Positions 1 through 62,762 of a stretch of DNA of 64,000 nt are shown one piece after another. Source of the stretch: a virus. Under the pieces are notes generated by a model. That model worked only from the letters and a program-made list of their open reading frames with translations. It was not told the origin of the DNA and searched no databases. The translations under genes and the position numbers were made by a program. Location: IMG/VR virus record IMGVR_UViG_2850695442_000001, one strand, 5' to 3'. The first letter of the stretch is position 1; every line of letters begins with the position of its first letter.

Positions 1-866
1 TTATCTAATTTTAATACCCTATATTTCATTCTTTTATCTCCCCTAGCAAAAAATTCTATTAACTGTTCATCTGTTTCATGAAATTGAAAATAGTTATCCC
101 GATGAACAATTTCTAAATTATCTGAGCCACAGATGCTACAAAATTTTAGTTCACTCCCTAAATTGATTTCAAAACTTTTGCAGTCTCTACAAAAATGATA
201 GATGTTATCATCAATAGAATAAAGTAATCCAGAGTATCGGGAAGCATTCCTAGCTCCCATGTCAAAATAATTCTTTCGCAAATTGATTTTGATTTTATTA
301 TCAAAATAATCTTTAAAAGTTTCAGTCACTTGAAGCCAAGGATACTTTTGTCTTGTATGAAGTGTATTTTGTGCAACAAGAGCAGAAACATCAAAAACTT
401 TTTCTATAAATTCCTTTGACCAGTCGCCACTCGTCGCACAAGTTGGACAGAGTAATTCACTTGCAAAAGTGTCTGCCTCCCCTTCGAGTATAGAATTAAC
501 CCTTCCAAAGCCATTTCGGGGGAGAAGTCCACTATAATTTACAAAGTGTCCTAAAAGAATATGCCCCAATTCGTGAGCTAAAGAAAAGCGTATCCTTTGC
601 GGAATTTTCTGAATGGTATTGTCATTATAAAAAATAATGTAAGCATTAGTCCCTGTTTTACAGCTGAAAGCTTCATCTGAAATTTGTTCTGCTTTTTTCC
701 CTAATTTTGGAGCGATATCAGTATTAAACTTTTCATAGGTGTCCAGATGAATATTTGGAAAATTAGAAAGCAGTTGTAAGATATTAATCGGAAATGTAAT
801 GTCGCATTTTTCAACTAATATTTTCTGAGTAGTGTAGTTAATCCTAGAATAATTATATTTTCCCAT
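1..866 (-). CDS. ImmA/IrrE-family metallopeptidase with C-terminal zinc-ribbon motifs (runs off the left edge)
   Basis: Manual translation from ATG at 866: MGKYNYSRIN...RIRFSLAHELGHILLGH (HExxH)...EGEADTFASELL, then CRDC and CSIC. No stop before base 1, which is why it is absent from the ORF track. Confidence 0.85.
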   Translation of the reverse strand, partial: MGKYNYSRINYTTQKILVEKCDITFPINILQLLSNFPNIHLDTYEKFNTDIAPKLGKKAEQISDEAFSCKTGTNAYIIFYNDNTIQKIPQRIRFSLAHELGHILLGHFVNYSGLLPRNGFGRVNSILEGEADTFASELLCPTCATSGDWSKEFIEKVFDVSALVAQNTLHTRQKYPWLQVTETFKDYFDNKIKINLRKNYFDMGARNASRYSGLLYSIDDNIYHFCRDCKSFEINLGSELKFCSICGSDNLEIVHRDNYFQFHETDEQLIEFFARGDKRMKYRVLKLD

Positions 867-878
867 TTCATTGTTTTA

Positions 879-1208
879 CTACTTATCATAGCCGTTATCT
901 TTTGCGAATTTAGCAATAAGAGCCCCTAGCATATCTATTTCCTCATCTGAAAGTTCTGTATCCATTTTTCGGGCAAGAATTTGTACTTTAGGTTTTTGCA
1001 ACATTTCCTTAGGAGCATCTGCTCTACCTAGGAGATAATCAACGGTCACATTAAAATAATCAGCAACTTTTGCTAAATCTTCTCCTTTGGGTTTTGCAGT
1101 TTTCCATTTATAGATATTATTCTCGCTAAATCCTAATCTAATTGCTAAATCTTTTAGACTAATTCCTTGTCCATCAGCTAAAGATTTAATTCGTTCAAAT
1201 GTAGTCAT
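879..1208 (-). CDS. XRE-family HTH transcriptional repressor (ImmR/CI-like)
   Basis: MTTFERIKSLA...GISLKDLAIRLGFSENNIYKWK...LAKVADYFNVTVDYLLGR is a classic XRE HTH. It lies directly upstream of the IrrE-type peptidase. Confidence 0.9.
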   Translation of the reverse strand: MTTFERIKSLADGQGISLKDLAIRLGFSENNIYKWKTAKPKGEDLAKVADYFNVTVDYLLGRADAPKEMLQKPKVQILARKMDTELSDEEIDMLGALIAKFAKDNGYDK

Positions 1209-1248: not shown

Positions 1249-1277
1249 TTGACTTATTTCTCGAAAAAGATTATAAT
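1249..1277 (+). promoter_or_regulatory. sigma70-type promoter for the rightward operon
   Basis: TTGACT (1249-1254), 17-bp spacer, TATAAT (1272-1277). Confidence 0.65.
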
Positions 1278-4456: not shown

Positions 4457-4572
4457 TATGATACTATTTATTATTTTGCTCATTGTCCTTATTATAGGAA
4501 CAATAATCAGTCATGGTCTTGTACGTGGTGCAGACCCTCGACAATAAAATAATTCACCGAAGGAGAGAAATC

Positions 4573-4839
4573 ATGAAACAATATAAGATTGATAAAATTT
4601 TAAACCACTTAAAAGAACAGAAAACTATTACAAGTTTAGAAGCTTTCCAGCTCTACAACATTACACGTTTATCTGCCATTATCTATGTTTTACGGCACAC
4701 TCACCATCTTTATATTACCAATGATGATTTTAAAGCCAAGGACGGCACACATTTTGCTCGTTATCATTTGCATGAGGGAGAAAGTGCTCCAGATGTTACG
4801 GTCGCAAAGGGACAAATGTCTATTAAAGATTTTATGTAG
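4573..4839 (+). CDS. phage-type winged HTH protein
   Basis: ILNHLKEQKTITSLEAFQLYNITRLSAIIYVLR pattern; RBS AAGGAG before ATG 4573. Confidence 0.6.
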   Translation: MKQYKIDKILNHLKEQKTITSLEAFQLYNITRLSAIIYVLRHTHHLYITNDDFKAKDGTHFARYHLHEGESAPDVTVAKGQMSIKDFM

Positions 4840-6114: not shown

Positions 6115-7548
6115 ATGTCAGTAGAAAAGAGACACTCAGCGAGTGCAGTTTTACGCAATCAAGAACATTTTTTTCAATTGGATGAACGATTGCTTTTGGT
6201 ATTTTCACCAGAGCAGTATATGTTCATCAATCGTCTTGATTTTTGGATTCAACAGAAATTGCAAGCACAACTAGCTAACGGTGAACCTGTTCGTGGTTGG
6301 GTTAACACAGAAAATAGAATGTATATTTTTAAGACATTAAAGCCTAGCCAACATCAAACGATTCCTTCATGGTTAGAAGAATTCTACCATTTTTCAGAAT
6401 CCAGTTTTAATCGTGTAGTAAAGTCGTTAGTTAGTGCGGGAATTGTACTCAAGCACAATGATAAGAACAAGCTTGCTAGAGATAAAACACTTTGGTATTC
6501 ACTTGATTATGAAGCATTGGACCGGTATTATTCCGAAAAATTTATAGAAAGATGGCAAGAAGTGATTGTCACACGCGTGACTTGGGAATTAAAAAAGTGG
6601 CTTGACTTTCAGCCAAATGTAGAAAATTCATCTCTTACGAATGTTCAATTAAGAAAGAAACTCTTTGACTCCAACGCAAAGGTCATAGCAAAACAACGAG
6701 CAGAAGAACTCGTTTTAGAGTTTAGTGATTTCAATGAACAAGTGATAAAAGATGAAGTCACAGAGGCAGTGAATAAAATTTTAACCCAATTAGAGCAGGA
6801 ATTTCTTGGTGTTGTTCCATGCTGTCAAAATGACAACATGAGTGATACCAACGGTTCAGATGGTGAAAACGAGAAAATTAACGAAAAAAAAGCTGGGAAG
6901 CCGCATGAACAGTCATGCTGTCAAAATGATAGCATGGAAGCTGTCAAAATGGCAGCAGCATTAACCATATATAACCAACCAGGTATAACAAAGAATTACG
7001 ATACTAATCGATACGTAAATCTTGACGATTTACCGAATAACTTCATTCAAGGAGTGAATCATCTTTTTCTTACGCCTAAAACCGTTGGACAACTCTCACA
7101 TTTTGGTGAAGAAGCCAAAGCATTACAAGATATCATTTTTAGAGCCAAACTAAAAGTTGAAAAAGAATACCACGAGCAGTTAAAGCTCAGATTTCCTGAT
7201 AGAGAAAAATCACGGATTGAGGGAGAATTTTGGCAAGATGATTTAGAGAATGAAGTTCAAAAGTTAATATTTGTGATTAAAGAGAGCAGACGCAAGGAGA
7301 AACCAATTCAAAATATTGAGGCTTTCTTTACGGCGATGATGGAAAATTTTTGGCTTGCGGCGCTGGTTATTGATTTAAACTGTTCTTACAGCTGGAAAGA
7401 AAATGCAAAATATCAAGCTGAGGAAGAGGGGAAGAATTTTCTCCACGCTTATTTTAGCAAATTTGATAAGGCGGAACTTAAAGAAGAATTGTCAAACTTT
7501 AGTAAGGAAGATGCTCAAAGGCTGAGCACGAATGAAATTTGGATTTGA
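6115..7548 (+). CDS. putative phage-type replication initiator (N-terminal wHTH)
   Basis: N-terminal FINRLDFWIQ...SFNRVVKSLVSAGIV...DKTLWYSLDYEAL resembles lambda-O/replisome-organiser-type initiators. The gene carries internal palindromic repeats. Confidence 0.6.
   Translation: MSVEKRHSASAVLRNQEHFFQLDERLLLVFSPEQYMFINRLDFWIQQKLQAQLANGEPVRGWVNTENRMYIFKTLKPSQHQTIPSWLEEFYHFSESSFNRVVKSLVSAGIVLKHNDKNKLARDKTLWYSLDYEALDRYYSEKFIERWQEVIVTRVTWELKKWLDFQPNVENSSLTNVQLRKKLFDSNAKVIAKQRAEELVLEFSDFNEQVIKDEVTEAVNKILTQLEQEFLGVVPCCQNDNMSDTNGSDGENEKINEKKAGKPHEQSCCQNDSMEAVKMAAALTIYNQPGITKNYDTNRYVNLDDLPNNFIQGVNHLFLTPKTVGQLSHFGEEAKALQDIIFRAKLKVEKEYHEQLKLRFPDREKSRIEGEFWQDDLENEVQKLIFVIKESRRKEKPIQNIEAFFTAMMENFWLAALVIDLNCSYSWKENAKYQAEEEGKNFLHAYFSKFDKAELKEELSNFSKEDAQRLSTNEIWI
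6818..6956. repeat. three palindromic iteron-like repeats inside the rep gene (candidate origin)
   Basis: CATGCTGTCA-AAA-TGACAACATG (6818-6840), CATGCTGTCA-AAA-TGATAGCATG (6914-6936) and GCTGTCA-AAA-TGGCAGC (6940-6956), with an A-rich tract between copies 1 and 2. Confidence 0.65.
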
Positions 7549-7693
7549 ATAGCATACAAAATTATTTGCCCGACAGATTTTTTTCCGTGAGATAATAAGA
7601 GAGTAAAAGGTTGTTGCCTTTCCTAGCTCAAAAGGCGTGCGAGTAGGATAAGTTAATTAGGACTGACGAAAGCGCAAAAAAGAGTATTTATAT

Positions 7694-8819: not shown

Positions 8820-10337
8820 ATGAGAGAACTCATAATTGATAATTTTGCAGGTGGCGGTGGCGCTTCAACAGGAATAGAAATGGCAATTGGTCGCTCGGTG
8901 GATGTTGCGATTAACCATGACCCGAACGCTATTGCAATGCACAAGGTCAACCATCCGACTACAAGACATTATTGTGAAGATGTTTTTCAAGTTGACCCTC
9001 ATGAAGCTACGAGAGGTCTCCCCGTTGCACTTTGCTGGTTTAGTCCTGATTGTAAGCATTTTTCTAAGGCAAAAGGCTCTACACCTGTTTCAAAGAAGAT
9101 TAGAGGTTTAGCCTGGGTAGCGGTCAAATGGGCAAAAGCAGTGAAACCGCGGGTCATCATTTTAGAAAATGTTGAAGAATTTCGGACATGGGGACCACTG
9201 ATAGAAACTGAAAAGGGATTGTTTCCAGACCCAGCTCACAAAGGCGAAACCTTTGAAGAATTTAAGTATGAGCTAGAAAAATGTGGTTACATCGTTGAAT
9301 TTAAAGAACTCAGAGCTTGTGATTATGGAGCCCCCACGACAAGAAAAAGGCTGTTTCTTATTGCACGTTCGGACGGCAAGCTAATTGTTTTTCCTGAAGC
9401 AACTCATGCCCCCAAAGATACTTTAGAGGTGCTTAGTGGATTAAAGCTTCCTTACCATTCTGCTGCAGAATGCATTGACTGGAATATTCCTGGACAATCT
9501 ATCTTTGACCGAAAGAAACCACTGGCAGAAAATACCATGAAGCGGATTGCCAGAGGTTTACAAAAATTTGTAATTCATAATCCAAACCCTTTTATTGTCA
9601 GAATCGGACAAACAGGATTTGGTGGAGACCGACTTTCCTATTCCTTAGAGCAGTCATTAACCACAATTACCACAAAAGCAGAACACTGTTTGGTTACGCC
9701 TACCATTATGGTTAATACCTCTGGACATCCGGGTTCAAGTGTTACTGAACCACTCAAAACAATTACTACTGGCGGGCATCAGGCACTTATTCAAACCAGT
9801 TGGATTAAAGAAGATTACTCCAAATCCACAGGGACAGATATCAGTAAGCCTGTTGGAACGATTACTGCACAAAGTGTTCATCAAGGTGTTATGTCGGCTT
9901 TTCTCTGCAAGCATTATGGCGGAAATTATCAAGGTGCAGGGATTGATGTCAGAAATCCAACCGATACAATAACGCAGGTTGACCATCATGCATTGGTTGA
10001 AGCGTTCCTGATAAAATATTATGGCTCGGATACGGGTCAAAGCCTCAATGACCCACTTCACACGATTCCAACTAAGGACCGGTTTGGTTTAGTTAGAATT
10101 GAAAATCAAGATTATCGGATAGTCGATATCACAATGCGGATGTTGCAACCGCATGAGCTTTCTAAAGCCCAAGGATTGCCCGAAGACTACATTATCGACC
10201 GAGACCCCGAAGGAAATAAAGTAAGTAAAGCCGTACAAACCGCAAGAATTGGGAACATGGTGGTTCCACAATGCGCAGAAGCGCTTGTTCGAGCCAACTT
10301 ACCAGAGTTATGTCAAACCACTCAAAATTCGAACTGA
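8820..10337 (+). CDS. dcm: DNA (cytosine-5)-methyltransferase, orphan, phage/plasmid type
   Basis: Motif I DNFAGGGGAS, motif IV SPDCKHFS, motif VI ENVEEF, motif VIII RKRLFLIAR, C-terminal IGNMV. No cognate endonuclease is adjacent. Confidence 0.95.
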   Translation: MRELIIDNFAGGGGASTGIEMAIGRSVDVAINHDPNAIAMHKVNHPTTRHYCEDVFQVDPHEATRGLPVALCWFSPDCKHFSKAKGSTPVSKKIRGLAWVAVKWAKAVKPRVIILENVEEFRTWGPLIETEKGLFPDPAHKGETFEEFKYELEKCGYIVEFKELRACDYGAPTTRKRLFLIARSDGKLIVFPEATHAPKDTLEVLSGLKLPYHSAAECIDWNIPGQSIFDRKKPLAENTMKRIARGLQKFVIHNPNPFIVRIGQTGFGGDRLSYSLEQSLTTITTKAEHCLVTPTIMVNTSGHPGSSVTEPLKTITTGGHQALIQTSWIKEDYSKSTGTDISKPVGTITAQSVHQGVMSAFLCKHYGGNYQGAGIDVRNPTDTITQVDHHALVEAFLIKYYGSDTGQSLNDPLHTIPTKDRFGLVRIENQDYRIVDITMRMLQPHELSKAQGLPEDYIIDRDPEGNKVSKAVQTARIGNMVVPQCAEALVRANLPELCQTTQNSN

Positions 10338-14825: not shown

Positions 14826-16224
14826 TATGGAACAACACCGAAAAACTCGGTATTTTAATGCCGAGATGAAAGGTGCTTTACTGTTAATTTACCCGACGAC
14901 TTTTTTCCCATGAGATAATAAGAGAGGAAGTTGATACTTAACGAAAGGAAGAATAATAAATGGTTATACGAAAAATCGCTCAAAAAATACCTTTCAAACC
15001 AACAAAGAAGCAAATTCAGTTCTTTGCGGATTGTTTTGGTGCGAGAAGATTTGTGTATAACAGCCAAGTTGCTGTATTCAATACTTACTTTGAAGAAAAT
15101 AAGAAGTTAGTCTATCCTAAAATCACAGACCTTAAACATGAGAATGAGTGGTTAAGAGGAAGTGTTGTGCCTGCTCACAGTCTCTCTAATGCACTCATGG
15201 ATTTTGGTAAAGCTCGTTCTGCCTACTTCAAAAAGAAAAAGTATTCAAAAAATCGTCCTCGATTTCAAAGCCGTCACGATTACATTCAATCGTTCAGAAA
15301 TGGAATGCCTCTAAAAACAATTCGTGAAAACGGACGCTACCAACTTTCAAAGAAGCTAGGATATATTAAAATCCGTAAACGTGACAACCTCCGCTATCCT
15401 ATTGAACAGATGACCCAATGGACAGTCAAGCGTGAGGGCGACAAATACTATATCGTCTTCTTGTTCACGGTTGAAGTTGAAACGCAATCTGAAACCACTG
15501 GTGCAGTTGGTATTGACCTTGGCATTAAAGACTTCGCTATCACATCGGACGGCGAAAAAATAGATTTGCCTGAACAAATCGGAAAACTGGAAGCCAAAGT
15601 GATAAAAGAACAGCGTAAACTTTCACGAAAACAAAAAGGCAAAGGCAAGCAGTCGAACAACTTCTATAAGCAAAAAGCGAAGTTACAAAAGGCTCATGCT
15701 AAAGTTCGTCATGTTCGTGAGAACTTCCATCATCATGTGTCAAAACAGCTCGTTGAAGAAAACCAATTCATTGCTTTGGAAACATTGAGACCTTCTAATA
15801 TGATAAAGAACCACAAGCTGGCTCGTTCGATTGCACGAGCAGGCTGGCGACAATTCACCAATCAGTTGGAATATAAAGCTCAATGGTATGGACGTACCGT
15901 ACAACACGTGGGGCAATACTATGCAAGTTCAAAGACTTGTGGAAATTGTGGCATCATCTATCACGGTCTTAAACTTTCTGAAAGAGAGTGGACGTGTTCA
16001 GAGTGCGGCACCCATCATGACAGAGACCTTAACGCAAGCCAAAACATTCTCAAAGAAGCACAACGATTAGCTTCTTAAAATAAATACTTGTAATTGTTAA
16101 AGAACCGACCGACAATCGGGGATAGCTCGCTCAATATAAGAACCTCTGGCACACGGAAACAAATCCGGAGTCAAGTCTGCTTAGTTCGCGAGAATCTCGG
16201 TACTTTAGTACCGAGAATGTTCAA
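14826..16224 (+). mobile_element. non-autonomous IS200/IS605-family element (tnpB only)
   Basis: Left-end hairpin CTCGGTA-TTTTAA-TGCCGAG (14846-14865); right-end hairpin CTCGGTAC-TTTA-GTACCGAG followed by TTCAA (16220-16224). No tnpA. The left boundary is approximate. Confidence 0.8.
14960..16078 (+). CDS. tnpB: RNA-guided endonuclease TnpB
   Basis: Ruv[12 protein letters not shown], RuvC-II IALETL, Zn finger SSKTCGNCG...CSECG, Ruv[15 protein letters not shown]. The D-E-D triad is intact. Confidence 0.95.
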
Positions 16225-25477: not shown

Positions 25478-25717
25478 GAAGAAAGTACAATCATGTTTAA
25501 TCAATATACAACACAAAAAGGAATAACTGTTACTGAATTAGTTTCAGGGTCACTCTGGATTGTTAATAATGGAAAATTACAATTTAAGTTTACTAATATC
25601 ATTGATTTTGTTCGGTATATGACAAAAGTGAAATGAATTTAAATTGGTAATCCCTCATGGGACTCACAGCGAGTGGCTGATTGTCCCGAGGGGGCGTTAT
25701 CTCGAAAGGAGAGGCAA

Positions 25718-25945
25718 ATGGTTACTGTTTATTCAAAAAACAACTGTATGCAATGCAGAATGGTTAAAAAATTTTTAACTGAACATGATGTTACTTTCAA
25801 AGAAATCAACGTAGATGAGAATCCTGAGTTTATTGCTCATTTAAAAGATGACCTTAATTTCATGGCAACCCCTGTTGTTGAAACTGAAAACATCGCTTTT
25901 TATGGTTTTGCGCCTGATAAGCTGAAAGCATTAGCAAACAATTAA
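25718..25945 (+). CDS. nrdH: glutaredoxin-like NrdH-redoxin
   Basis: MVTVYSKNNCMQC (CxxC)...TPVV...GFAPDKL; RBS AAAGGAG. Confidence 0.92.
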   Translation: MVTVYSKNNCMQCRMVKKFLTEHDVTFKEINVDENPEFIAHLKDDLNFMATPVVETENIAFYGFAPDKLKALANN

Positions 25946-30396: not shown

Positions 30397-30451
30397 ATAT
30401 CTATTATGACACCTCTATCTCTCTCTTAGAGGTGTTTTTATTTGATAGAAA

Positions 30452-30489
30452 GGACTTTTTACTCGATGAAAAATTTTCAATGAGATAAT
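30452..30489 (+). promoter_or_regulatory. GGACTT-N26-GATAAT motif, copy 3
   Basis: Upstream of the operon containing ORF 30526 and the Spx-like gene. Confidence 0.75.
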
Positions 30490-30525: not shown

Positions 30526-31350
30526 ATGGCAAGTCCAAGTTATCAAAAGAAATTAAAAAGTGCTGTTCAGCGCTATAAAGTTCAGCAGATTAAGAAAACA
30601 TCTAGGGAAGAAAATAATAAAGAGATTAAAGAAAAATGGCTCAATCAAGAATTGATGACTCCTGTTATTCCGAATATGCCACGATGTCCAAAAAATGTTG
30701 ATGAATATCTGTATTTATTAACTATTCAGTATGGAATGGCTAATAAGGGAACAAAAAACACCAATGACCGGCGTGATATTCTCTCGAATTATAGTGGCGC
30801 TTGGATTGGAGTGGAAGGTTATGTGACGGATGCTAAAATCTTTAATGGAGTCATGCGACTTTGTATTTCGCTTCCGAGACTTGATACTTTTGATGCTAAC
30901 TCTGGCAAAATTATTGATAGCCATGTCTGGATTAAAATGAGTGATTTTCAATACAGTGATATTGATGATGGACGAATTACGAATCAAGCAATGTACGAGA
31001 GCGAAGAAAGCGTGGATGGTGCCATAAGTCTAGGAGATTTCGTCCAATTTGTTGGATTGGTTTATCCTTATGTCACAGGAAAAAAAGTGAAATATGGCTT
31101 CAATAAATTTAAAAGGATTAGCCGTGGGGGGCTAAAATTTGTTGTTGAATCTAAAAAAGGAAAGAAACAACGAATTGTTGATTCGCGTTATCCAAGATTG
31201 GGTTATTTGATTAAAGCACATCATATCCCTGGAACGAATAAATTTGCTTATCGTTTTGCAAATTGGAATGAAATTAATAAACAAAAAGAGAAATTAGAAA
31301 ATTTGTATAATGCTTACAAATTGAAAAATGGGGTTGGGGAAGAAGCATGA
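30526..31350 (+). CDS. hypothetical basic protein
   Basis: 274 aa, Lys-rich. Confidence 0.7.
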   Translation: MASPSYQKKLKSAVQRYKVQQIKKTSREENNKEIKEKWLNQELMTPVIPNMPRCPKNVDEYLYLLTIQYGMANKGTKNTNDRRDILSNYSGAWIGVEGYVTDAKIFNGVMRLCISLPRLDTFDANSGKIIDSHVWIKMSDFQYSDIDDGRITNQAMYESEESVDGAISLGDFVQFVGLVYPYVTGKKVKYGFNKFKRISRGGLKFVVESKKGKKQRIVDSRYPRLGYLIKAHHIPGTNKFAYRFANWNEINKQKEKLENLYNAYKLKNGVGEEA

Positions 31351-31790
31351 TAACAGTATTTGTAGGTTTGAATAATAAAAAATCAATAGGAACAGCCATT
31401 CAATGGCTCAAAGCGCATCATCTCTCTTATAAAGTAAAACACATAGAGGAGATGACTTTATCAGAACTCATTCATATTCTTTCGTTGACTGATGAAGGGA
31501 CCTCTGAATTAGAAGCTAACCCTGACCATAAAGCAAGAAATAAAGCATGGCGACAGATGCATGAAGCCATAGAAAATGCAGAGAGTTTAAGAGAAGTACA
31601 GACCTTCATTCACAGTTATCCTCAACACTTTCATGGATTATTTATCGTGGACGAACAAAGATTAGTAATTGGCTTTAATGCGAATGAAATTAGATGTTTT
31701 GTCCCTCGTGAAAATCGCCATGTTTTTATTAACGGGTTACATTCAAATGAATTAAGAGAACATTTGAATGTGCGCGGATATACGTCTTAA
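31347..31790 (+). CDS. Spx/MgsR (ArsC-fold) family regulator lacking the CxxC motif
   Basis: AIQWLKAHHLSY...ELIHILSLTDEG...IVDEQRLVIGFNANEIRCFVPRENR matches Spx; the N-terminal CxxC is replaced by NKKS. Confidence 0.75.
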   Translation: MITVFVGLNNKKSIGTAIQWLKAHHLSYKVKHIEEMTLSELIHILSLTDEGTSELEANPDHKARNKAWRQMHEAIENAESLREVQTFIHSYPQHFHGLFIVDEQRLVIGFNANEIRCFVPRENRHVFINGLHSNELREHLNVRGYTS

Positions 31791-31811: not shown

Positions 31812-32045
31812 ATGTATAATTTACTGAAACAATATCTTACAGAGAAGAATATTTTTTTAGGAAAAGAAATGTTCTCAGCTGTGTTATTGGATTTACAATT
31901 TAGAGAAGCCGGAAATACAACGCGGATTTCTAATGCTTTAGCTTATGGATTAAAGCTTTATCAAACATCAGACGGTTTTAAGATTGATAAGGACAAATTT
32001 GAATATTTATCAAGAATTTCTACCGAGGTGTGGAAGACAAAGTGA
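31812..32045 (+). CDS. hypothetical protein
   Basis: RBS GGAGGAG; 77 aa. Confidence 0.55.
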   Translation: MYNLLKQYLTEKNIFLGKEMFSAVLLDLQFREAGNTTRISNALAYGLKLYQTSDGFKIDKDKFEYLSRISTEVWKTK

Positions 32046-32061
32046 AACTCATATAGAAAAA

Positions 32062-32099
32062 GGACTTGTTTTAGGTGTTTTTTTCTTTTTTGAGAAGAT
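32062..32099 (+). promoter_or_regulatory. GGACTT-N26-GAAGAT variant, copy 4
   Basis: aaGGACTTgtttt...tgaGAAGAT upstream of the topoisomerase. Confidence 0.6.
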
Positions 32100-32121: not shown

Positions 32122-34230
32122 ATGAGTATTTTTGTGCTAAGCGAAAAAAACACCCAACAAGCTAAAAAATATGCACAAGCTCTCTTTGGACATACCAGGC
32201 GTAACAAGGAGGGTTTCTACGAGGGAGTGTGGGCTGGGAATTCAATGGTTATAGGGTATCTCGGCGGTCACTTATATGAACAATATTCACCTGCTGACTA
32301 TACGGATAGGTGGAATGCGCGTGAAGCAAAACCTCGACAGTTAATTGAAATGCAACCACTTGTTCCAGAAAAATGGAAAATCAAAGAAAAGAAGGGAAAA
32401 GTTGGCAAGCAGTCTATTCACGACCTTCTTCAAAAGATTAAACGCGCAGGAGACAATGTGACAGAAATTTATTTAGCGACTGACCCTGACCGTGAGGGGA
32501 CACTACTTGGGCGTGAGGTTTTAATTGAATTAGGATTGATGGATAAAGTGACGTCTCGCGTTTATGCTCATGATACGGCAGAGTCCCAAATTAGAAAAGC
32601 TTTCAGTCAGGCAAAGCCGATAGCAACGGATGAATTACTCTATGTTGCAGGTTTGGAAAGACAACGTGTAGATTGGCTTGGTGGAATTGCTTCTTTTGCC
32701 TTAATGAAGTCAGAAAATGCACTGAAAGGGCATCTTGGAAAAGGAACAGGTTCAATAGGACGTGTTAAATCTGGTGTTGCTATTTTTATAGAACAGGTCA
32801 ATCAAAAAAACGATAATTGGGACGAGGAAGCACCTGAAAATAATAAGTATGGTATAAAAATGACGACTTCTGATGGACTTGTTTTGAAATCTGCTCGACA
32901 GGCACCGCTAGAAGCACAAATTATTGGTTGGATAAAACGACATTCAACAATAACAACCGTTGATATAAAAGCAGAGGATAAAAAGCGTTCAGTGAATGCT
33001 CCAATGTTATTACAGCTCTCTAGTATTATGACTTGGGCGAAAAAAAATAAAATAAAAAAAGAGATTATGCCTTTTTTGAATAATTTGGCTCTTAAAGGCT
33101 ATATTACTTATCCTCGTACAGAAATAAATGTCATTTCAAAATCTTTTCGTGACGAAAATCTTGCACCACGCGCAGAAGAAGTTAAAAATCTTCTTGAAGT
33201 GAAGCTTCCTTTACCTAATCGTTTGATTTTTGATAAGCCTTGGATAAACAATAAAAAAGTAGATAACGCTGGACACATGGCAAATACCTATGGAGATAAT
33301 GTGCCCAGTAAGACGGAACTTGAAAGTTTAGAAAAAGAGGAACAACAACTTTACCGGATTATAGGATTGCGCTCTCTTGCGCCGATGATGCCTAAAGGAA
33401 TTGATAGCGTTCGCCAATATAGCAGTCAAGTTGATGATATGCCCTTTGCTGCAAGCAGTTCATCTATTCTAATAAAAGGCTGGCGAGAATTGCCTGAGCT
33501 TTATTCTAATAAAAATCAGTCAAAGAAATCAGATGAGGAAACGACTTTTGTGGATGGCGGTTTGAAAAATGTCAATTTTGAAGTGGAACGTATAAAACGT
33601 CATCCTCCAGTCCGTATTACTCCTGCAAATATCATAGAACTGATGGGAAAATATGGTTTGGGAACATCAGGAACCCGAGAAAATATTATTAAAGAGATGA
33701 CTTCTTTTGGACAAATCAAAAACAATGGAAAATATTATGAAGTAACGGAAGTAGGAAAAGCTTTGGTGTATAATCAGCCACTTTATACCTTTGAGTCCAC
33801 AAAAGAGCTTGGTAAACTTCTCTTAGATATTCAGGGATTAGGAGACTCAGAAACACCAATTCCAGCAGGAACGGCTATCAATAAACTTGCAAGGGATATT
33901 TCAACTTGGCGAGATGCGATATTGCCAAAAATAAATGACACGTTTACTTATTTTGACCCCAATATTGAAAAATACAAAGCAGTAGAACGTATGGAAGTGA
34001 AAACAAAGTCAGGTAAAACGTTGAAGTTTAAAAAAGAGTTTTTTGGACATACTTTTAGTGAAGAAGAATGTGAAGCGCTTAGTCAAGGGAAAGAAATTAC
34101 TTTTAAAGGAAATAATGGGAAGCCTGTCACTGGTATGCTAAAGCATCAAACTTTTAGTGGGAATAAATTTATAGGCTTTATGCCGAATTGGGACAGTGAA
34201 AAATATAAAAAAGCAAAAAGCGTGAGATAG
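32122..34230 (+). CDS. topB: type IA DNA topoisomerase (TopB/TraE-like)
   Basis: TOPRIM VLSEK and LATDPDREG, GSIGRVKS, active-site GYITYPRT, GLGTSGTR. Confidence 0.9.
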   Translation: MSIFVLSEKNTQQAKKYAQALFGHTRRNKEGFYEGVWAGNSMVIGYLGGHLYEQYSPADYTDRWNAREAKPRQLIEMQPLVPEKWKIKEKKGKVGKQSIHDLLQKIKRAGDNVTEIYLATDPDREGTLLGREVLIELGLMDKVTSRVYAHDTAESQIRKAFSQAKPIATDELLYVAGLERQRVDWLGGIASFALMKSENALKGHLGKGTGSIGRVKSGVAIFIEQVNQKNDNWDEEAPENNKYGIKMTTSDGLVLKSARQAPLEAQIIGWIKRHSTITTVDIKAEDKKRSVNAPMLLQLSSIMTWAKKNKIKKEIMPFLNNLALKGYITYPRTEINVISKSFRDENLAPRAEEVKNLLEVKLPLPNRLIFDKPWINNKKVDNAGHMANTYGDNVPSKTELESLEKEEQQLYRIIGLRSLAPMMPKGIDSVRQYSSQVDDMPFAASSSSILIKGWRELPELYSNKNQSKKSDEETTFVDGGLKNVNFEVERIKRHPPVRITPANIIELMGKYGLGTSGTRENIIKEMTSFGQIKNNGKYYEVTEVGKALVYNQPLYTFESTKELGKLLLDIQGLGDSETPIPAGTAINKLARDISTWRDAILPKINDTFTYFDPNIEKYKAVERMEVKTKSGKTLKFKKEFFGHTFSEEECEALSQGKEITFKGNNGKPVTGMLKHQTFSGNKFIGFMPNWDSEKYKKAKSVR

Positions 34231-35215: not shown

Positions 35216-36524
35216 TTAAATTTCAAAGGAGGGAAGCATGACCCAACAAATCAAATTCATCAATGTTCTGAATAACCACGGCACATGGTACGTCGATGGA
35301 TTAAAACAGGACAAGCACACTGGATTGGACGTGACACCATTCAATTCGACCGTCCAATAGGTTCAGAAACACAAGAACTCACATTAGGCATTAATGCCGG
35401 CTATAAAATCATTGGTGCATCAGTGACAAGTGAGACACAAGAGTATTATGCCTCAGAAACGAACCTGCGCACTGATATTGTCAAGAACTTGAGTACAAAA
35501 CGTCAATATAGACGGTCTCGTAGAAATCACAAGACACGATATCGTCAGGCACGCTTTGACAATCGTGTGAAGTCAAAGCATAAAGGTTGGCTTGCCTCAA
35601 GTATTGAAGTCAAGATTGACAATCATGTCCAGCTCATTCGCAAGCTTATAAAGAAGCTTCCGATAACTAATATTATCGTTGAAGCTGGACAGTTTGACAT
35701 TCAAAATCTCAAAAACCCTGACATCACAGGTAAAGAATACCAAGAAGGAAATCAACTTGGATTTGCTAATGTCAGAGAGTATGTCTTAGCAAGAGACCAT
35801 CACAAATGTCAACACTGCAAGGCAGATGGTTTGAAAGGTATCAAGTTACACGTCCGTCACCTCGTCTCACGAAAAGTGGGAGGTAACCGCCCTGACAATC
35901 TCATCATTTTGTGTGAAAACTGTCACGCAGCTTACCACCGTGGCGAGTTTGAATTAAAGAAAGCACCAAAAGGCTATGCGCCAGCTAGTGCAATGTCAAT
36001 CATGCGTTCGACCCTGCTTGACCGACTCATTAATGAATTTGGTGACAAGGTGGAGACAACGTTTGGCTATTTGGTCAAAGAAGCACGACTCACAATTGAC
36101 TTGCCAAAAACAAGCATGACTGATGCCTTCGTCATTGCAGGCAATCTAATGGCTGACAGATTAGACTTTCAAGAGCTGAGAAAGCATGTGCGCTGCCATA
36201 ACAGACAACTCCACAAAGCAAAATTTCTTAAAGGTGGCATCCGCAAAGCCAATCAAGCTCCAAGAGAAGTTCATGGTTTTCGACTGTTTGACAAGGTTCA
36301 GGTAGAAAACAAAAATTGGTTTGTTTTTGGAAGAAGAACCAGTGGCTATTTTGACCTTCGTAGTCTGACAGGAGAAAAGCTCAATAAGGGGAGCTATAGT
36401 GCCAAAAAAATTAAGCTCGTACACCGAGCAAATTCAGTAATCACACAATACGCAACAATCGCTCCAACGGGAGCATAGAAAGGGCGCATTCCTCTTGGCA
36501 TTTAAATACCGAGTCTTCTTGCGC
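34929..36524 (+). mobile_element. IscB-type IS200/IS605-superfamily element
   Basis: omega RNA scaffold, iscB, then a short hairpin right end (GCGCA...TGCGC). Removing it rejoins AAGGAGG with ATTAATT-ATG. Confidence 0.75.
35238..36478 (+). pseudogene. iscB: IscB (RRXRR-HNH) with PLMP motif deleted/frameshifted and catalytic substitutions
   Basis: RBS-ATG 35238 gives MTQQIKFINVLNNHGT, then shifts frame to MVRRWIKTG (35285). RuvC-I GINAG (D to N), bridge helix RQYRRSRRNHKTRYRQARFDNR, HNH LHVRH...NLIILCENCH, RuvC-III KTSMTDA. Confidence 0.85.
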
Positions 36525-42977: not shown

Positions 42978-43015
42978 GGACTTGTTTTAAGTCCTTTTTT
43001 TCTTTGTGGGAAAAT
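42978..43015 (+). promoter_or_regulatory. GGACTT-N26-GAAAAT variant, copy 7 (overlaps inverted repeat AAGGAC..GTCCTT)
   Basis: aaGGACTTgttttaagtcctttttttctttgtggGAAAAT. Confidence 0.65.
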
Positions 43016-47084: not shown

Positions 47085-47315
47085 ATGGGACAGCACCGAA
47101 AAACTCGGTATTTTAATGCCGAGATGAAAGACGCATTACTGTTAATTTGCCTGACGGATTTTGTCTCCGTGAGATAATAAGAGAGGAAGTTGATACTTAA
47201 CATTGCGATTGAAACATTAAGACCCTCTAACATGATTAAAAATCACAAACTTGCTCGCTCTATTGCAAGAGCAGGCTGGCGACAATTCACCAATCAGTTG
47301 GAATATAAAGCCCAA
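47085..47315 (+). mobile_element. remnant of a second tnpB element (left end fused to an internal tnpB fragment)
   Basis: Roughly 80% similar to 14826-14941, including the CTCGGTATTTTAATGCCGAG hairpin. From 47201 it encodes [38 protein letters not shown]. Confidence 0.85.
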
Positions 47316-49678: not shown

Positions 49679-49716
49679 GGACTTTTACCCCCGTCCTTTT
49701 TTCTTTGTGAGAGAAT
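49679..49716 (+). promoter_or_regulatory. GGACTT-N26-GAGAAT variant, copy 9
   Basis: aaaaGGACTTttacccccgtccttttttctttgtgaGAGAAT. Confidence 0.65.
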
Positions 49717-51512: not shown

Positions 51513-51550
51513 GGACTTGTTTGAGTCCTTCTTTTGTGTTGCGAGATAAT
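51513..51550 (+). promoter_or_regulatory. GGACTT-N26-GATAAT motif, copy 11 (perfect inverted repeat AAGAAGGAC/GTCCTTCTT)
   Basis: Upstream of ORF 51658 and the virB6-like gene. Confidence 0.75.
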
Positions 51551-59292: not shown

Positions 59293-62200
59293 ATGGATTT
59301 GATTAAAGAATTGGATATTAAAAATGATGTTCCTTCCGTAAAATTGCGCTATTATCAAGAAGAAGCGAAAGCTGCGATTGAAGCAGAATGGGAAAAAGGC
59401 AACAAAAGAACCCTAGTTGTTATGGCAACAGGGTGTCATAGAGTCGGTGAAGGTCTTTTAATGGCTGATGGAACTGTTCAAAAAGTTGAAAATATCAAAG
59501 TTGGTGATAAATTATTAGGGGGTGACGGCTCTCCTCGTACAGTATTAAAACGGCATGAAGGAGAAGATGAAATTTATGAGATTAAACCTATCAAAGGAAA
59601 AAGTTTTTTTGTAACAGGGAATCATAAACTAACTTTGGTGAAAACAAGAAGGCGTGGAGATAATTCGCCACAGTATCCATCTTATCAGTATGATGCTTCT
59701 TTTGTAGATGTATCAGTAGATGATTGGCTTTCATGGGGTAAAACACAAAAGCATATCCATAAATTAGTTAGAACAACAGGGGTTGAATTTCTAAATAAGG
59801 TTACTTTACCTCTTCCCCCTCATTTTCTTGGTGTTCTTCTTGGAGATGGTGGCTTGAAGTATCAGTTAAATGTGACTACTATGGATGAAGAAATTGTTGA
59901 AGAACTCATTAATCAAACTAAGGCACTTAATATGGAGCTTAGTCATACACCTGCTGGACGAGCAAAAACATATAAATTTTTAGATAATCATAAGCACAAT
60001 AATAAATTAAGAAATATTTTAGATACTTTAGATTTAACTGATAAAGGCTCAGAAGAAAAATTTATTCCACAAATTTACAAAACTGCATCTACGCAAGATA
60101 GACTAGAATTAATTGCAGGATTATTAGATACAGATGGAAGTTTAAGCAATACAACTTATGATTTTACATCTAAATCAAAACAATTAGCAGAAGATTTGGT
60201 ATTTCTTTGTCGCTCGGTTGGTTTAGCCGCTTATATGTCTGAAGCTAAAAAAGGAATAAAAAGTTTAAATTTTGAAGCAATTTATTGGCGTGTATGTATT
60301 AGTGGAAATACTGATAGAATTCCATGTAGAGTAGCGCATAAAATTGCTTCCAAAAGAAAACAAAAGAAAAATGTACTTAGAACAGGTTTTACTGTGACTC
60401 CTGTTGGAAAAGATAATTATGTTGGTTTTACAGTAGATGGAGATAATCGTTACTTACTAGATGATTTTACGATTACTCATAACTGTGGCAAAACGATAGT
60501 CATGGCAAAGGTCGCGGAAGAACAACAACGTCTTCATCCAGACAAACAAATTTTAGTGCTTGCTCACCGTGGAGAACTGCTAAATCAAGCAATGAATAAA
60601 TTTGAAAAAGCAACAGCACTTACCACTGTAAAAGAGAAAGCCCAAGAGACAAGTATTGGTTCGGAAGCACAAGTCGTTGTTGCTTCTGTTCAAACCATGA
60701 AAAATGATAAACGTCTGCATCAATTTGACCCAGAACAGTTTAGCACCATTATGGTCGATGAGACACATCATATTATGGCAAAGATGTACCGCAAAGTCAT
60801 TGACTATTTCCCCAATGCGAATATGTTAGGTGTCACAGCGACAGCTGACCGGACAGATAAATTAGATTTAGGAGAAGTATTTGACAGTGTTGCTTATGAG
60901 TACGATTTAGCAACAGCTATTAAGGACGGCTATCTTTCTCCATTAACCGCTCAGACTATTCCAATTAATATTGATTTAAACGGCGTACATATGAAAGCAG
61001 GAGATTTTAATGAATCTGAACTTGATGATGTTTTAGGACCTTATTTAGAACGAATCGCAGATGAAATGGTCCTCGCGTGTGAAGGACGACAAACAGTCGT
61101 TTTTATGCCGTTGATTGCGACTTCCAAACGTTTTGTGGATATCCTAAATAAAAAAGGCTTTCGTGCTGCTGAGGTCAATGGACAATCTAAGAATCGGGAT
61201 ACCATTCTCAAAGATTTTGAAAATCGGAAATATGAAGTGTTGGTGAATGCCATTTTGCTTACTGAAGGTTGGGATTGTCCGACTGTGGATTGTATTGTTA
61301 TGCTTCGTCCAACCAAAAGCCGAAGTCTTTATGCACAGTGTATTGGGCGGGGAACTCGCTTATCGCAAGGAAAAAAAGAGTGCCTTATTTTAGATTTTCT
61401 CTGGAATAGTTCTAAGCACGCACTCTGTCATCCTGTTTCGCTTCTTACCAAAAATGAAGCACTGGTACATAATGCGTCACTCCTCGCACAAAATGGCGAA
61501 CCAAAAGCTGTTGACGAGTTAGTTGAAGAAGCGAAAGAAGAATATAAAAAAGCACAATATGCACAGTTGACACGAGAATTAGAAGCTCTTTCTATTCGGC
61601 GCCGTCGGAAAAAGCTTGACCCTTTTGAAATTTTTCTAGGGAATGCGAATGGTGTGGATTTCTCTGATGAAACCCAGAAAATGACAATGAGTCAAAATCA
61701 AAAAAACTGGTTGGATAGTAATAATATAGATACTTCTTTGATTAAAACCTACGCACAAGCTGAGAGTTTAATCAATCAATTAACACATCGTGAACCAGAC
61801 CAAGCTACGCTGAAGCAAGTGAAACTTCTTAAAGATAAAGGATTTAAACAGGCTGACCAATGGACAAAAGTAGAAGCGTCCGAAGTCATAGGAAAAATAG
61901 CAGAAAACTTCTGGGAAGTGCCACGCTCAATCCATCCAAATACATATCAACCAAAACGCTTAGAAAATATTGAAAATAAAGAGAATTCTTCCTCAATACA
62001 ACACTCTGAGATAAAAGAGCGTATTAAAAAATTTGATAAACTGATAGAAAAGCAATTTTTAGAGTTGATTGCATCTGATAAAGAAGTGACAGCTAATGAT
62101 AAGTTACGAAAAGCCATGCTTCAAGCCATGATGGAAGAAAAAAGCAACAGAGTAACGGCAATAAAACGAGCCTTTTTACAGAAAAAATCTCAAAAAGAAA

Positions 62201-62706
62201 TAGATGGTATTGTTTATCAAGAAAACAAAGAATTTTACACTCAAACGAAGGAAGCTTGGAAAGTCTCAGAAGAAAAGCTTCGACAAGAAAAACGGCGAGA
62301 AGCCCGCAAAAAGGAGCGGGTGAAAAAAGAACAAAAGCAAAAAGAAAAAATCATAAGTCGAGAAAAAGCCGAAGAAGTCAGCAAGGCGCGTGAAGATAAA
62401 ATTAAAGAGTTGTTTCCTGATGAATGGTACTTAGTTAAAGCACTTAATGGACGATGGATGAAAAAATATAAAGGGCGGATTACTGCTATCGCTCTTACAA
62501 AACGTGAAGGGGATTATTATGTGAGAGTCCACATTTCTGATTTTAATAAGAAAACATTCAAGGAAAGAAAAAAAAAACAAATTATTGACCATTTCTATGG
62601 GTTTAGCTCTGAAGTGCATTTTAGAGGCGAAAAGCATCTCTCTATTCCGATTTCAACACTCAAAGAATTTTTTTACAAGGAGACAGTGGTAGCAGCCATT
62701 TTGTGA
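59293..62706 (+). CDS. DEAD/DEAH-box SF2 helicase (phage/type III Res-like) containing an intein
   Basis: After splicing: ATGCGKT Walker A, VDETHH, TATADRTD, LTEGWD, YAQCIGRGTR; long basic C-terminal extension. Confidence 0.9.
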   Translation: MDLIKELDIKNDVPSVKLRYYQEEAKAAIEAEWEKGNKRTLVVMATGCHRVGEGLLMADGTVQKVENIKVGDKLLGGDGSPRTVLKRHEGEDEIYEIKPIKGKSFFVTGNHKLTLVKTRRRGDNSPQYPSYQYDASFVDVSVDDWLSWGKTQKHIHKLVRTTGVEFLNKVTLPLPPHFLGVLLGDGGLKYQLNVTTMDEEIVEELINQTKALNMELSHTPAGRAKTYKFLDNHKHNNKLRNILDTLDLTDKGSEEKFIPQIYKTASTQDRLELIAGLLDTDGSLSNTTYDFTSKSKQLAEDLVFLCRSVGLAAYMSEAKKGIKSLNFEAIYWRVCISGNTDRIPCRVAHKIASKRKQKKNVLRTGFTVTPVGKDNYVGFTVDGDNRYLLDDFTITHNCGKTIVMAKVAEEQQRLHPDKQILVLAHRGELLNQAMNKFEKATALTTVKEKAQETSIGSEAQVVVASVQTMKNDKRLHQFDPEQFSTIMVDETHHIMAKMYRKVIDYFPNANMLGVTATADRTDKLDLGEVFDSVAYEYDLATAIKDGYLSPLTAQTIPINIDLNGVHMKAGDFNESELDDVLGPYLERIADEMVLACEGRQTVVFMPLIATSKRFVDILNKKGFRAAEVNGQSKNRDTILKDFENRKYEVLVNAILLTEGWDCPTVDCIVMLRPTKSRSLYAQCIGRGTRLSQGKKECLILDFLWNSSKHALCHPVSLLTKNEALVHNASLLAQNGEPKAVDELVEEAKEEYKKAQYAQLTRELEALSIRRRRKKLDPFEIFLGNANGVDFSDETQKMTMSQNQKNWLDSNNIDTSLIKTYAQAESLINQLTHREPDQATLKQVKLLKDKGFKQADQWTKVEASEVIGKIAENFWEVPRSIHPNTYQPKRLENIENKENSSSIQHSEIKERIKKFDKLIEKQFLELIASDKEVTANDKLRKAMLQAMMEEKSNRVTAIKRAFLQKKSQKEIDGIVYQENKEFYTQTKEAWKVSEEKLRQEKRREARKKERVKKEQKQKEKIISREKAEEVSKAREDKIKELFPDEWYLVKALNGRWMKKYKGRITAIALTKREGDYYVRVHISDFNKKTFKERKKKQIIDHFYGFSSEVHFRGEKHLSIPISTLKEFFYKETVVAAIL
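59434..60483 (+). mobile_element. intein with LAGLIDADG homing endonuclease (350 aa)
   Basis: Starts CHRVGEGLLMADG, contains FVTGNHKL (block B), LGVLLGDG and IAGLLDTDG, ends FTITHN, followed by the C+1 Cys. Confidence 0.95.
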
Positions 62707-62724: not shown

Positions 62725-62762
62725 GGACATTTTTCTCGTCCTTTTTTTTCTTGTGGGATAAT
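62725..62762 (+). promoter_or_regulatory. GGACAT-N26-GATAAT variant, copy 15 (inverted repeat AAAAGGAC/GTCCTTTT)
   Basis: Upstream of the antirepressor. Confidence 0.7.

What the first reader, a model, noticed from the sequence alone, without database searches (positions are those of the whole stretch)
31347..31790. Redox-blind Spx paralogue as candidate activator of the -44 GGACTT regulon
Seen: an Spx/ArsC-fold protein that keeps the Spx C-terminal signature (IVDEQRLVIGFNANEIRCFVPR) but has lost the N-terminal CxxC and the RPI motif. It is itself in an operon behind a GGACTT-N26-GATAAT promoter (30452). Established: B. subtilis Spx binds the RNAP alpha C-terminal domain, and the complex reads a cis-element around -44. 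Inference: a plasmid-encoded, oxidation-independent Spx could redirect host RNAP to the element's -44 motif, with positive feedback. That would be a new way to control conjugation genes.
Basis: inference. Interest (0 to 1): 0.75.

Follow-up and report, generated by a model that had tools for sequence, protein, structure and literature searches.

The report
Mobile-element Spx paralogue without redox switch
A chromosomally integrated conjugative element of a Lactococcus-type bacterium encodes a real but very divergent Spx-type RNA-polymerase-binding protein that has lost its redox switch; it is always made together with an unknown 274-residue partner in elements that share one odd promoter type, so it is a reasonable but unproven candidate for the factor that switches those promoters on.

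Summary
ORF 31347-31790 is an intact Spx-fold protein (AF2 pLDDT 90; best structural matches are Spx chains). By alignment it has no CxxC and no RPI motif, but keeps G52 and most of the alpha-CTD interface. It is the second gene of an operon behind a GGACTT-N26-GATAAT promoter.

The promoter class is real. All 16 exact copies in the 2.76-Mb genome lie inside one ~115-kb integrated element, so this is not a plasmid. The conserved block, placed at -46 to -35 if transcription starts 7 nt after GATAAT, covers the -46 to -37 stretch that B. subtilis Spx contacts in the cryo-EM activation complex.

New here:
- The Spx-like gene is tightly coupled to unknown ORF274.
- The pair recurs in about five related metagenomic elements, all with the motif.
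- A Rep3-plasmid contig has a distant ORF274 but no Spx-like gene and no motif.

Against the activator idea:
- Spx's DNA-contact positions are poorly conserved in this clade.
- This copy lost R14, K15, R91 and R92.
- A degraded relative in L. nasutitermitis keeps the promoters without the pair.
- CxxC-less Spx paralogues are common in this host.

Verdict: a genuine new Spx clade. The activator role is plausible (~0.4) and untested. The scan holds no look-alike on other DNA.

The parts
30409..30440 (+). Terminator-like hairpin (ACACCTCT / AGAGGTGT plus a T-run) that closes the upstream ORF209 unit
   Evidence: Read directly from the sequence. It lies just before the 30452 promoter, so ORF274 and the Spx-like gene start a new transcription unit.
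30452..30489 (+). Element-class promoter: GGACTT, 26 nt, GATAAT with a TG extension (TGAGATAAT) and no -35 hexamer
   Evidence: It is one of 16 exact copies in the genome, all inside the element.
30526..31350 (+). ORF274, an unknown protein and the constant partner of the Spx-like gene (basic helical N-terminus, beta-rich core)
   Evidence: There is no Pfam, NCBIfam, PHROG or PDB match, and the AF2 model is unusable (pLDDT 38). Homologues of 44-55% identity sit directly before an Spx-like gene in L150, L151/152, L155, L161/162 and L163/164.
31347..31790 (+). Spx-family protein without CxxC and without RPI; its start overlaps the ORF274 stop (ATGA)
31812..32045 (+). ORF77, a small unknown protein conserved after the Spx-like gene in element B
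   Evidence: 53% identity to the 79-aa ORF of L113/L150 at the same position.
32062..32099 (+). Degenerate copy of the promoter motif (GGACTT-N26-GAAGAT) before the topoisomerase gene
   Evidence: Only 4 of 6 positions match in the -10 box, so it may be weak or inactive.
32122..34230 (+). Type IA DNA topoisomerase, the last gene of the unit
   Evidence: Pfam Topoisom_bac E 1e-35 plus Toprim. 71-76% identity to the topoisomerase at the same position in L113/L150. The start was chosen by homology (MSIFVL...).

Best explanation
The ORF encodes a monomeric Spx-type protein that docks on the C-terminal domain of the host RNA polymerase alpha subunit. It has no thiol switch, so its activity is set only by how much of it is made. 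It is made as a translationally coupled pair with ORF274. The most likely job of the pair is to help host sigma-A polymerase use the element's own promoters. These promoters have an extended but off-consensus -10 (TGnGATAAT, with G where T is expected at -12), no -35 hexamer, and a conserved AAGGACTTgTTT block. That block sits at about -46 to -35 if transcription starts 7 nt after GATAAT, which is where an Spx-alpha-CTD complex sits on DNA. The pair lies behind such a promoter itself, so it would amplify expression (positive feedback) and would not be the first trigger. The first trigger is probably derepression of the canonical sigma-A early promoter at 1250-1277 next to the ImmR/ImmA-like genes.

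Shown: the fold, the family, the loss of CxxC and RPI, the coupling to ORF274, the reality and element-specificity of the promoter class, and the co-occurrence.

Inferred: alpha-CTD binding, any DNA readout, the transcription start that fixes the -44 numbering, and the whole link between this protein and the motif.
For: 1. Spx fold and family.
2. G52 is invariant, and the alpha-CTD contact positions (L46, V71, L76, L79 kept or conservatively changed) are conserved at least as well as the whole protein (0.46 against 0.42 pairwise identity). The host RpoA keeps V260, R261, Y263, N264 and K267 (read against PMC8501982).
3. In the Spx activation complex, Spx contacts an extended -44 element at -46 to -37 (PMC8501982). 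The position matrix of 22 element promoters has its conserved block at -46 to -35, given the assumed start.
4. The block is asymmetric, which fits a monomeric reader. The left arm GGAC(TT) is at a fixed distance from the -10, while the complementary right arm, where present, lies 4-10 nt away.
5. The motif occurs nowhere else in the genome. TGAGATAAT is 6.7-fold enriched in the element and at chance level outside it, so an element-encoded factor is expected.
6. No sigma-70 region 2 or 4 and no LytTR domain was found in the element. Of the recognisable regulators in the window (ImmR-like, HTH_17, wHTH, Spx-like), only ImmR-like and Spx-like are conserved in the syntenic element B. The ImmR/early-promoter region holds no GGACTT.
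7. Every contig with the ORF274 + Spx-like pair has motif promoters (L150/element B, L151, L152, L155, L161, L163/164). The contigs with a distant ORF274 but no Spx-like gene (L159/L160) have none.
8. Lactococcus SpxB is a published precedent for an Spx paralogue that binds RpoA and activates a specific promoter (PMC7476776).
Against: 1. The positions with which B. subtilis Spx contacts DNA are less conserved within the clade than the protein overall (0.29 against 0.42), although the motif core is nearly invariant. R92, one of Spx's base-contacting residues, is G, V or T in all clade members.
2. This copy alone has also lost R14, K15 and R91 (to G, T and H) and the cis-Pro of RPI.
3. L. nasutitermitis carries at least six motif promoters in a ~32-kb related element but has no orthologue of the Spx-like gene or of ORF274 anywhere in its genome. 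That element is degraded, however.
4. The gene is itself behind a motif promoter, so something else must fire first.
5. The co-occurrence is among related elements and is not independent evidence.
6. Dozens of element ORFs have no recognisable family, and any of them could be the real reader.
7. The transcription start, and so the -44 numbering, is assumed.
Confidence: 0.4

Rival explanations
1. It is a generic anti-alpha or host-takeover factor. The protein binds alpha-CTD like any Spx but reads no DNA. By occupying alpha-CTD it would compete with the host's 11 Spx-type paralogues and with alpha-CTD-dependent activators. That would reprogramme host transcription while the element is active or newly arrived. 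In this model the GGACTT block is read by another, still unrecognised element protein.
For: - The alpha-CTD interface is conserved but the DNA-contact positions are not.
- The host has many competing paralogues, and competition between paralogues for RpoA has been proposed in L. lactis (PMC7476776).
- Spx's original anti-alpha role is discussed in PMC8501982.
- The gene sits among replication, recombination and establishment-type genes (SSB, RecT, helicase, NrdH, topoisomerase).
- The L. nasutitermitis remnant keeps the promoters without the gene.
Against: - It does not explain the strict coupling to ORF274.
- It does not explain why the pair-less plasmid contig lacks the motif.
- No other conserved candidate reader was recognisable.
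Confidence: 0.3
2. The pair has a non-transcriptional job. ORF274 and the Spx-like protein would work together on something other than RNA polymerase, for example as an adaptor/substrate pair for proteolysis (as Spx pairs with YjbH) or in DNA processing beside the topoisomerase. The Spx fold would serve only as a protein-binding scaffold.
For: - Tight gene coupling in all relatives.
- A clade-specific conserved W-x-x-[I/M]-[H/N] on helix alpha-4 and an HF before the former RPI suggest a new protein interface.
- In two element types the pair is followed by a topoisomerase, and in the others by a cell-wall hydrolase of the transfer apparatus.
Against: - G52 and its surrounding LSLTDxGTxEL segment, the hallmark of alpha-CTD binding, are the best conserved part of the clade.
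- ORF274 shows no similarity to YjbH/DsbA-type proteins or to anything else.
Confidence: 0.15
3. It is a decaying paralogue. The loss of CxxC, RPI, R14, K15 and R91 would mean that this copy is drifting and has little function.
For: This copy is the most derived member of its clade at functionally annotated positions. It has no close relative among 1.84 billion representative proteins; the nearest is 43% identical.
Against: - The frame is intact and translationally coupled.
- The fold is predicted with confidence (pLDDT 90).
- The alpha-CTD segment is conserved.
- Orthologues are kept at the same position in a syntenic element at about 44% identity.
Confidence: 0.05

Closest known systems
Bacillus subtilis Spx (PDB 1Z3E, 3GFK, 7F75)
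   Same: Same fold and length class (Foldseek TM ~0.8). G52 and most alpha-CTD contact residues are kept. The C-terminal IGFN..EIR.F.PR segment is kept. Spx acts as a monomer at -46 to -37 of promoters (PMC8501982), which is where the element's conserved block lies under the assumed start.
   Different: There is no CxxC and no RPI, and R14, K15, R91 and R92 are changed. There is a 5-7-residue insertion before helix alpha-4 and a clade-specific W..[I/M][H/N] on that helix. The C-terminal helix is longer and lacks the Spx C-terminus. The gene is on a mobile element and coupled to ORF274. The candidate target is AAGGACTT, not the AGCA-type -44 element. Only ~28% identity.
Lactococcus lactis SpxB / TrmA and the other five chromosomal Spx paralogues
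   Same: Same genus-level host biology. Multiple Spx paralogues share RpoA and can direct it to particular promoters (SpxB to oatA; PMC7476776). Several paralogues in this very genome also lack CxxC.
   Different: All chromosomal paralogues here keep [R/K]-x-P-[I/L]. None is paired with ORF274 (not found elsewhere with this query). They share at most ~37% identity with this protein. They are host stress regulators, not mobile-element genes.
Plasmid-borne Spx/MgsR genes of Lactiplantibacillus, Pediococcus, Enterococcus and L. garvieae plasmids
   Same: They are Spx-family genes on mobile DNA (123 plasmid records match).
   Different: They are 29-34% identical ordinary Spx genes in unrelated contexts, for example beside a Y-family polymerase on pLG606-optrA. 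No plasmid record holds ORF274.
Phage T4 MotA/AsiA sigma appropriation (analogy of principle only, from general knowledge)
   Same: A mobile element supplies small proteins that retarget host polymerase to promoters with a good -10, no -35 and an element-specific upstream box.
   Different: The proteins are unrelated. They act on sigma region 4, with the box at -30, not on alpha-CTD at -44. No homology was tested or claimed.

Membership tests
Spx/MgsR family (RNAP alpha-CTD-binding regulators, ArsC-like fold) | ArsC/thioredoxin-like fold with Spx topology | tested here: met
   AF2 pLDDT 90.1. The eight best Foldseek hits are Spx chains, E 2e-9 to 1e-6, TM 0.77-0.83 on the target; ArsC-like proteins score lower.
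Spx/MgsR family (RNAP alpha-CTD-binding regulators, ArsC-like fold) | Sequence match to curated family models above their cut-off | tested here: not met
   NF002459 scores 65.6 bits against a cut-off of 123. TIGR01617 scores 34.1 against 75. Pfam ArsC is not hit at E<=1. The matches are significant (E 4e-18) but sub-threshold, so this is a divergent member.
Spx/MgsR family (RNAP alpha-CTD-binding regulators, ArsC-like fold) | N-terminal CxxC redox switch | tested here: not met
   C10 and C13 align to K and I; the N-terminal segment reads GLNNKKSIG.
Spx/MgsR family (RNAP alpha-CTD-binding regulators, ArsC-like fold) | RPI motif (R92-P93-I94) | tested here: not met
   It aligns to G-L-F. All host paralogues and all clade relatives keep the Pro.
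Spx/MgsR family (RNAP alpha-CTD-binding regulators, ArsC-like fold) | G52 and the hydrophobic alpha-CTD contact cluster | tested here: met
   G52 and L46 are invariant. V71 is I/V, L76 is L/I and L79 is V/L in the clade. The residue list is from PMC8501982.
Spx/MgsR family (RNAP alpha-CTD-binding regulators, ArsC-like fold) | Physical binding to RpoA alpha-CTD | not testable with these tools
An experiment is needed.
Spx/MgsR family (RNAP alpha-CTD-binding regulators, ArsC-like fold) | DNA-contact residues of the Spx activation complex (T11, S12, R14, K15, R60, K62, Q65, R91, R92, N106) | tested here: inconclusive
   In this copy S12, K62 and N106 are kept. T11, R14, K15, R91 and R92 are changed. 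R60 is kept in the HMMER alignment but not in the MAFFT alignment, because of the insertion.
ArsC arsenate reductase | Catalytic N-terminal cysteine | tested here: not met
   There is no Cys in the first 100 residues; the only Cys is C117. Structural matches to ArsC are weaker than those to Spx.

The most novel reading that the evidence does not exclude
ORF274 and the Spx-like protein form a two-subunit RNA-polymerase appropriation factor encoded by a mobile element. The Spx-like subunit clamps onto alpha-CTD without any redox control. The pair reads GGACT at about -44, so that host sigma-A polymerase fires from -35-less TGnGATAAT promoters across the whole ~115-kb conjugative element. That would give an all-or-none, self-amplifying switch for excision, replication and transfer.
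Probability: 0.3. Interest if true: 0.8.

Novelty: new variant of a known kind. Interest (0 to 1): 0.55.

Why it matters
Spx proteins are known as chromosomal stress regulators that work through the alpha subunit of RNA polymerase. I found no paper describing one as a control protein of a conjugative element.

If this clade drives the element's private promoter class, it would be a new way for mobile DNA to take over host polymerase: through alpha-CTD, not through sigma. It would also explain how more than 25 promoters spread over ~115 kb are coordinated. It would give a compact, orthogonal promoter/activator pair for lactic acid bacteria.

Even if the protein is not the motif reader, the clade is informative. 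It shows what an Spx looks like once the redox centre is lost (CxxC gone or reduced to CxxS across the clade, RPI Pro also gone in this copy) while the alpha-CTD face is kept, and it flags ORF274 as an unknown obligate partner.

Tried and rejected
- The AF2 model of ORF274 from a 3-sequence alignment had pLDDT 38 and was not searched further. The PDB profile search for ORF274 found nothing.
- An element-encoded sigma factor or LytTR regulator as the motif reader was not found: Pfam Sigma70_r2, Sigma70_r4_2 and LytTR have no hit inside C1:184-300 kb. A very divergent one cannot be excluded.
- The wHTH (4513-4839) and HTH_17 (1443-1823) proteins as conserved activators are weakened, because neither has a detectable homologue in the syntenic element B.
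- A rigid dimeric palindrome reader was rejected, because the right arm GTCC lies 4-10 nt from GGAC while the left arm is at a fixed distance from the -10.
- The near-DNA search of plasmids found no match; the phage search found only short IS-like and integrase-flank stretches. ORF274 is absent from plasmids and viral contigs.
- The strict motif scan of genome contigs found nothing. The looser scan found only L. nasutitermitis among 87 mostly chance hits.
- The metagenome scan gave 33 single hits, of which only L127, L131 and L135 are relatives. Their records could not be extended.
- The L. nasutitermitis element as a clean refutation was rejected. Its Replic_Relax gene keeps only residues 176-309, and the next gene is frameshifted.

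Full report
**What is at the coordinates.** ORF 31347-31790 (+, 147 aa) is real.
- It matches the NCBIfam Spx models significantly but below their curated cut-offs (NF002459, E 4e-18, 65.6 against 123 bits). It does not reach Pfam ArsC.
- phmmer against the PDB finds only Spx chains (E ~1e-11).
- An AF2 model built on 67 homologues is confident (pLDDT 90.1). Its best structural matches are B. subtilis and S. mutans Spx (TM ~0.8), ahead of ArsC proteins.
- Aligned to a canonical Spx, C10 and C13 are K and I, and R91-R92-P93-I94 are H-G-L-F. G52 and the C-terminal IGFN..EIR.F.PR segment are kept.

**The transcription unit.**
- A terminator-like hairpin (30409-30440) closes the upstream gene.
- The promoter GGACTT-N26-GATAAT follows at 30452, and then ORF274 (30526-31350).
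- The stop codon of ORF274 overlaps the Spx-like start as ATGA.
- ORF77 and a type IA topoisomerase follow. A degenerate motif copy lies before the topoisomerase.

**The element.** The window is part of a 2.7-Mb chromosomal contig, so this is not a plasmid.
- At the left end lie a tyrosine integrase, an ImmA-like metalloprotease and an ImmR-like HTH repressor on the minus strand.
- Opposite them is a canonical TTGACT-N17-TATAAT promoter (1250-1277). It drives an early operon with HTH_17, a ParM/Alp7A-like protein, a wHTH protein and a C5 methylase.
- Almost all other genes are on the + strand. They include VirB4-like, cell-wall hydrolase, RecT, helicase and topoisomerase genes.

It is best described as a ~115-kb integrative conjugative element.

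**The promoter class.**
- GGACTT-N26-[G/T]ATAAT occurs 9 times in the window against 0.12 expected. It occurs 16 times in the genome, all between C1:186308 and 295971.
- A matrix of 22 sites gives AAGGACTTgTTT at -46 to -35, an A/T tract at -26 to -21, and TGaGATAAT at -15 to -7 with G at -12 in 21 of 22. This numbering assumes a start 7 nt after GATAAT.
- There is no -35 hexamer.
- TGAGATAAT is 6.7-fold enriched in the element and at chance frequency elsewhere.

This looks like a private promoter type that should need an element-encoded factor.

**Why Spx is a reasonable candidate.**
- In the cryo-EM Spx activation complex, a single Spx bound to alpha-CTD contacts an extended -44 element at -46 to -37. 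Base contacts come from T11, S12 and R92, with K62 in the major groove. Backbone contacts come from R14, K15, S58, R60, Q65 and R91 (PMC8501982).
- The element's conserved block covers the same positions and is asymmetric, as expected for a monomer. Where a complementary right arm exists, it lies 4-10 nt away and is followed by a T-run. It therefore looks like a terminator stem and not a second half-site.
- The alpha-CTD contact residues are kept or conservatively changed. The host RpoA keeps the "261 determinant".
- L. lactis SpxB is a precedent for a paralogue that binds RpoA and activates a specific promoter (PMC7476776).

**New facts from relatives.**
- The protein has no close relative in 5.8 billion clusters or in 1.84 billion representatives. 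The nearest is 43% identical.
- ORF274 has five homologue clusters.
- In element B the pair lies in the same synteny, ORF274 - Spx-like - ORF77 - topoisomerase. Element B is a JGI contig rebuilt over 47 kb from L150, L156, L157 and L158. Its motif promoters sit at the positions orthologous to our 10513, 16560, 30452 and 34235/34868.
- In L151/L152, L155, L161/L162 and L163/L164 the pair precedes the transfer-apparatus hydrolase. It is flanked by AAAAAAGGACT-hairpin-T7-TGAGATAAT promoters.
- The most distant ORF274 (36% identity, L159/L160, on Rep3-plasmid contigs) is followed by a membrane protein instead of an Spx-like gene. Those contigs have no motif and no TGnGATAAT box on the coding strand.
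- In element B, the wHTH and HTH_17 proteins of our early operon have no detectable homologue, while ImmR-like and the pair are conserved.
- No sigma or LytTR domain is detectable in the element.

**What speaks against the link.**
- Within the clade, pairwise identity is 0.29 at Spx's DNA-contact positions, 0.42 overall and 0.46 at alpha-CTD contacts. This is odd for a protein that is supposed to read a nearly invariant GGACT.
- R92 is lost in all members. This copy alone has also lost R14, K15, R91 and the cis-Pro.
- Lactococcus nasutitermitis carries a ~32-kb related element with at least six motif promoters. Neither an orthologue of the Spx-like gene nor ORF274 was found in that genome. That element is clearly degraded: it has a truncated Replic_Relax gene and a frameshifted neighbour, and it shares 84-97% identity with parts of ours, so the deletion is recent. 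It weakens the hypothesis but does not refute it.
- The gene is itself motif-driven, so it cannot be the primary trigger.
- In the hydrolase-type relatives the pair's own promoter carries a variant box (GAAGTT or GAGGTT), and in element B it carries GGGCTT. This may mean that it is controlled differently.
- Being redox-blind is not unusual. Four or five of the host's eleven chromosomal paralogues lack CxxC.
- Co-occurrence among kin is not independent evidence, and dozens of element ORFs remain unannotated.

**Verdict.**
- This is a genuine, highly divergent, mobile-element-specific clade of the Spx family. It is defined by loss of CxxC (CxxS or none), a GTxELE segment after G52, an insertion plus W..[I/M][H/N] on helix alpha-4, HF before the former RPI, and obligate coupling to ORF274.
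- Alpha-CTD binding is very likely by homology but untested.
- I put about 0.4 on the model that the protein, probably together with ORF274, activates the GGACTT promoters. I put about 0.3 on a non-specific anti-alpha or takeover role, 0.15 on a non-transcriptional role of the pair, and 0.05 on decay.
- No paper in the searched library describes an Spx-type regulator of a conjugative element.
- The scan's own notes hold no look-alike on other DNA.

Noticed in passing
window 7548-7596, 14871-14919, 47130-47178 (also beyond the window, at window-equivalent coordinates 99068, 103609 and 104408): A second promoter class shares the TGAGATAAT box but has TTT(A/G)CC(C/T)GAC about 21 nt upstream instead of GGACTT. 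Some GGACTT promoters (59222, 34235) carry both boxes.
   Followed up: partly
window 42978-43005, 49679-49706, 51513-51540, 62725-62752; relatives L151:11280 and 13441, L163:11265, 13431 and 19747: In 9 of 22 motif sites (shuffles: mean 3.7, maximum 8 of 500), GGAC(TT) is the 5' arm of a short hairpin followed by a T-run, which looks like a terminator fused to the next promoter. In the hydrolase-type relatives every copy has this form, with an A-tract in front.
   Followed up: partly
window 1250-1277 and 3-1208: A canonical sigma-A promoter (TTGACT-N17-TATAAT) faces an ImmR-like HTH repressor gene (879-1208, minus strand) and an ImmA-like M78 protease gene (3-866, minus strand). This is probably the element's primary switch, of the ICEBs1 type.
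   Followed up: partly
window 25673-25945: A small NrdH/glutaredoxin-like protein with a CMQC active site. It matches the N-terminal half of the arsC_related model but is not an Spx.
   Followed up: partly
window 59293-62706: An SNF2/ResIII helicase interrupted by an intein (Hint plus a LAGLIDADG homing endonuclease).
   Followed up: no
window 14960-16078 and 35285-36478: An IS605-type OrfB/TnpB (Cas12f-like TNB domain) and an RRXRR-HNH nuclease gene lie inside the element.
   Followed up: no
L106-L108 (G201:C3 ~4-36 kb, Lactococcus nasutitermitis NBRC 111537): A ~32-kb degraded relative of the element. It keeps integrase, adhesin, sortase and a few transfer genes and at least six motif promoters. 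It has lost the immR side, the early operon and the Spx-like/ORF274 pair. It also carries a stand-alone LytTR protein.
   Followed up: partly
L151:9315-9881 and L152:1048-1614: In the hydrolase-type relatives, a 188-aa protein made of three sigma-70-region-4/LuxR-like HTH repeats sits directly upstream of the ORF274 + Spx-like pair. No homologue was detected in this element.
   Followed up: partly
L151:9931-9968, L161 ~1190-1232, L163 ~9925-9968, element B 36233: The promoter in front of the pair itself carries a variant upstream box (GAAGTT, GAGGTT or GGGCTT instead of GGACTT) in four relatives. This hints at separate control of the pair.
   Followed up: no
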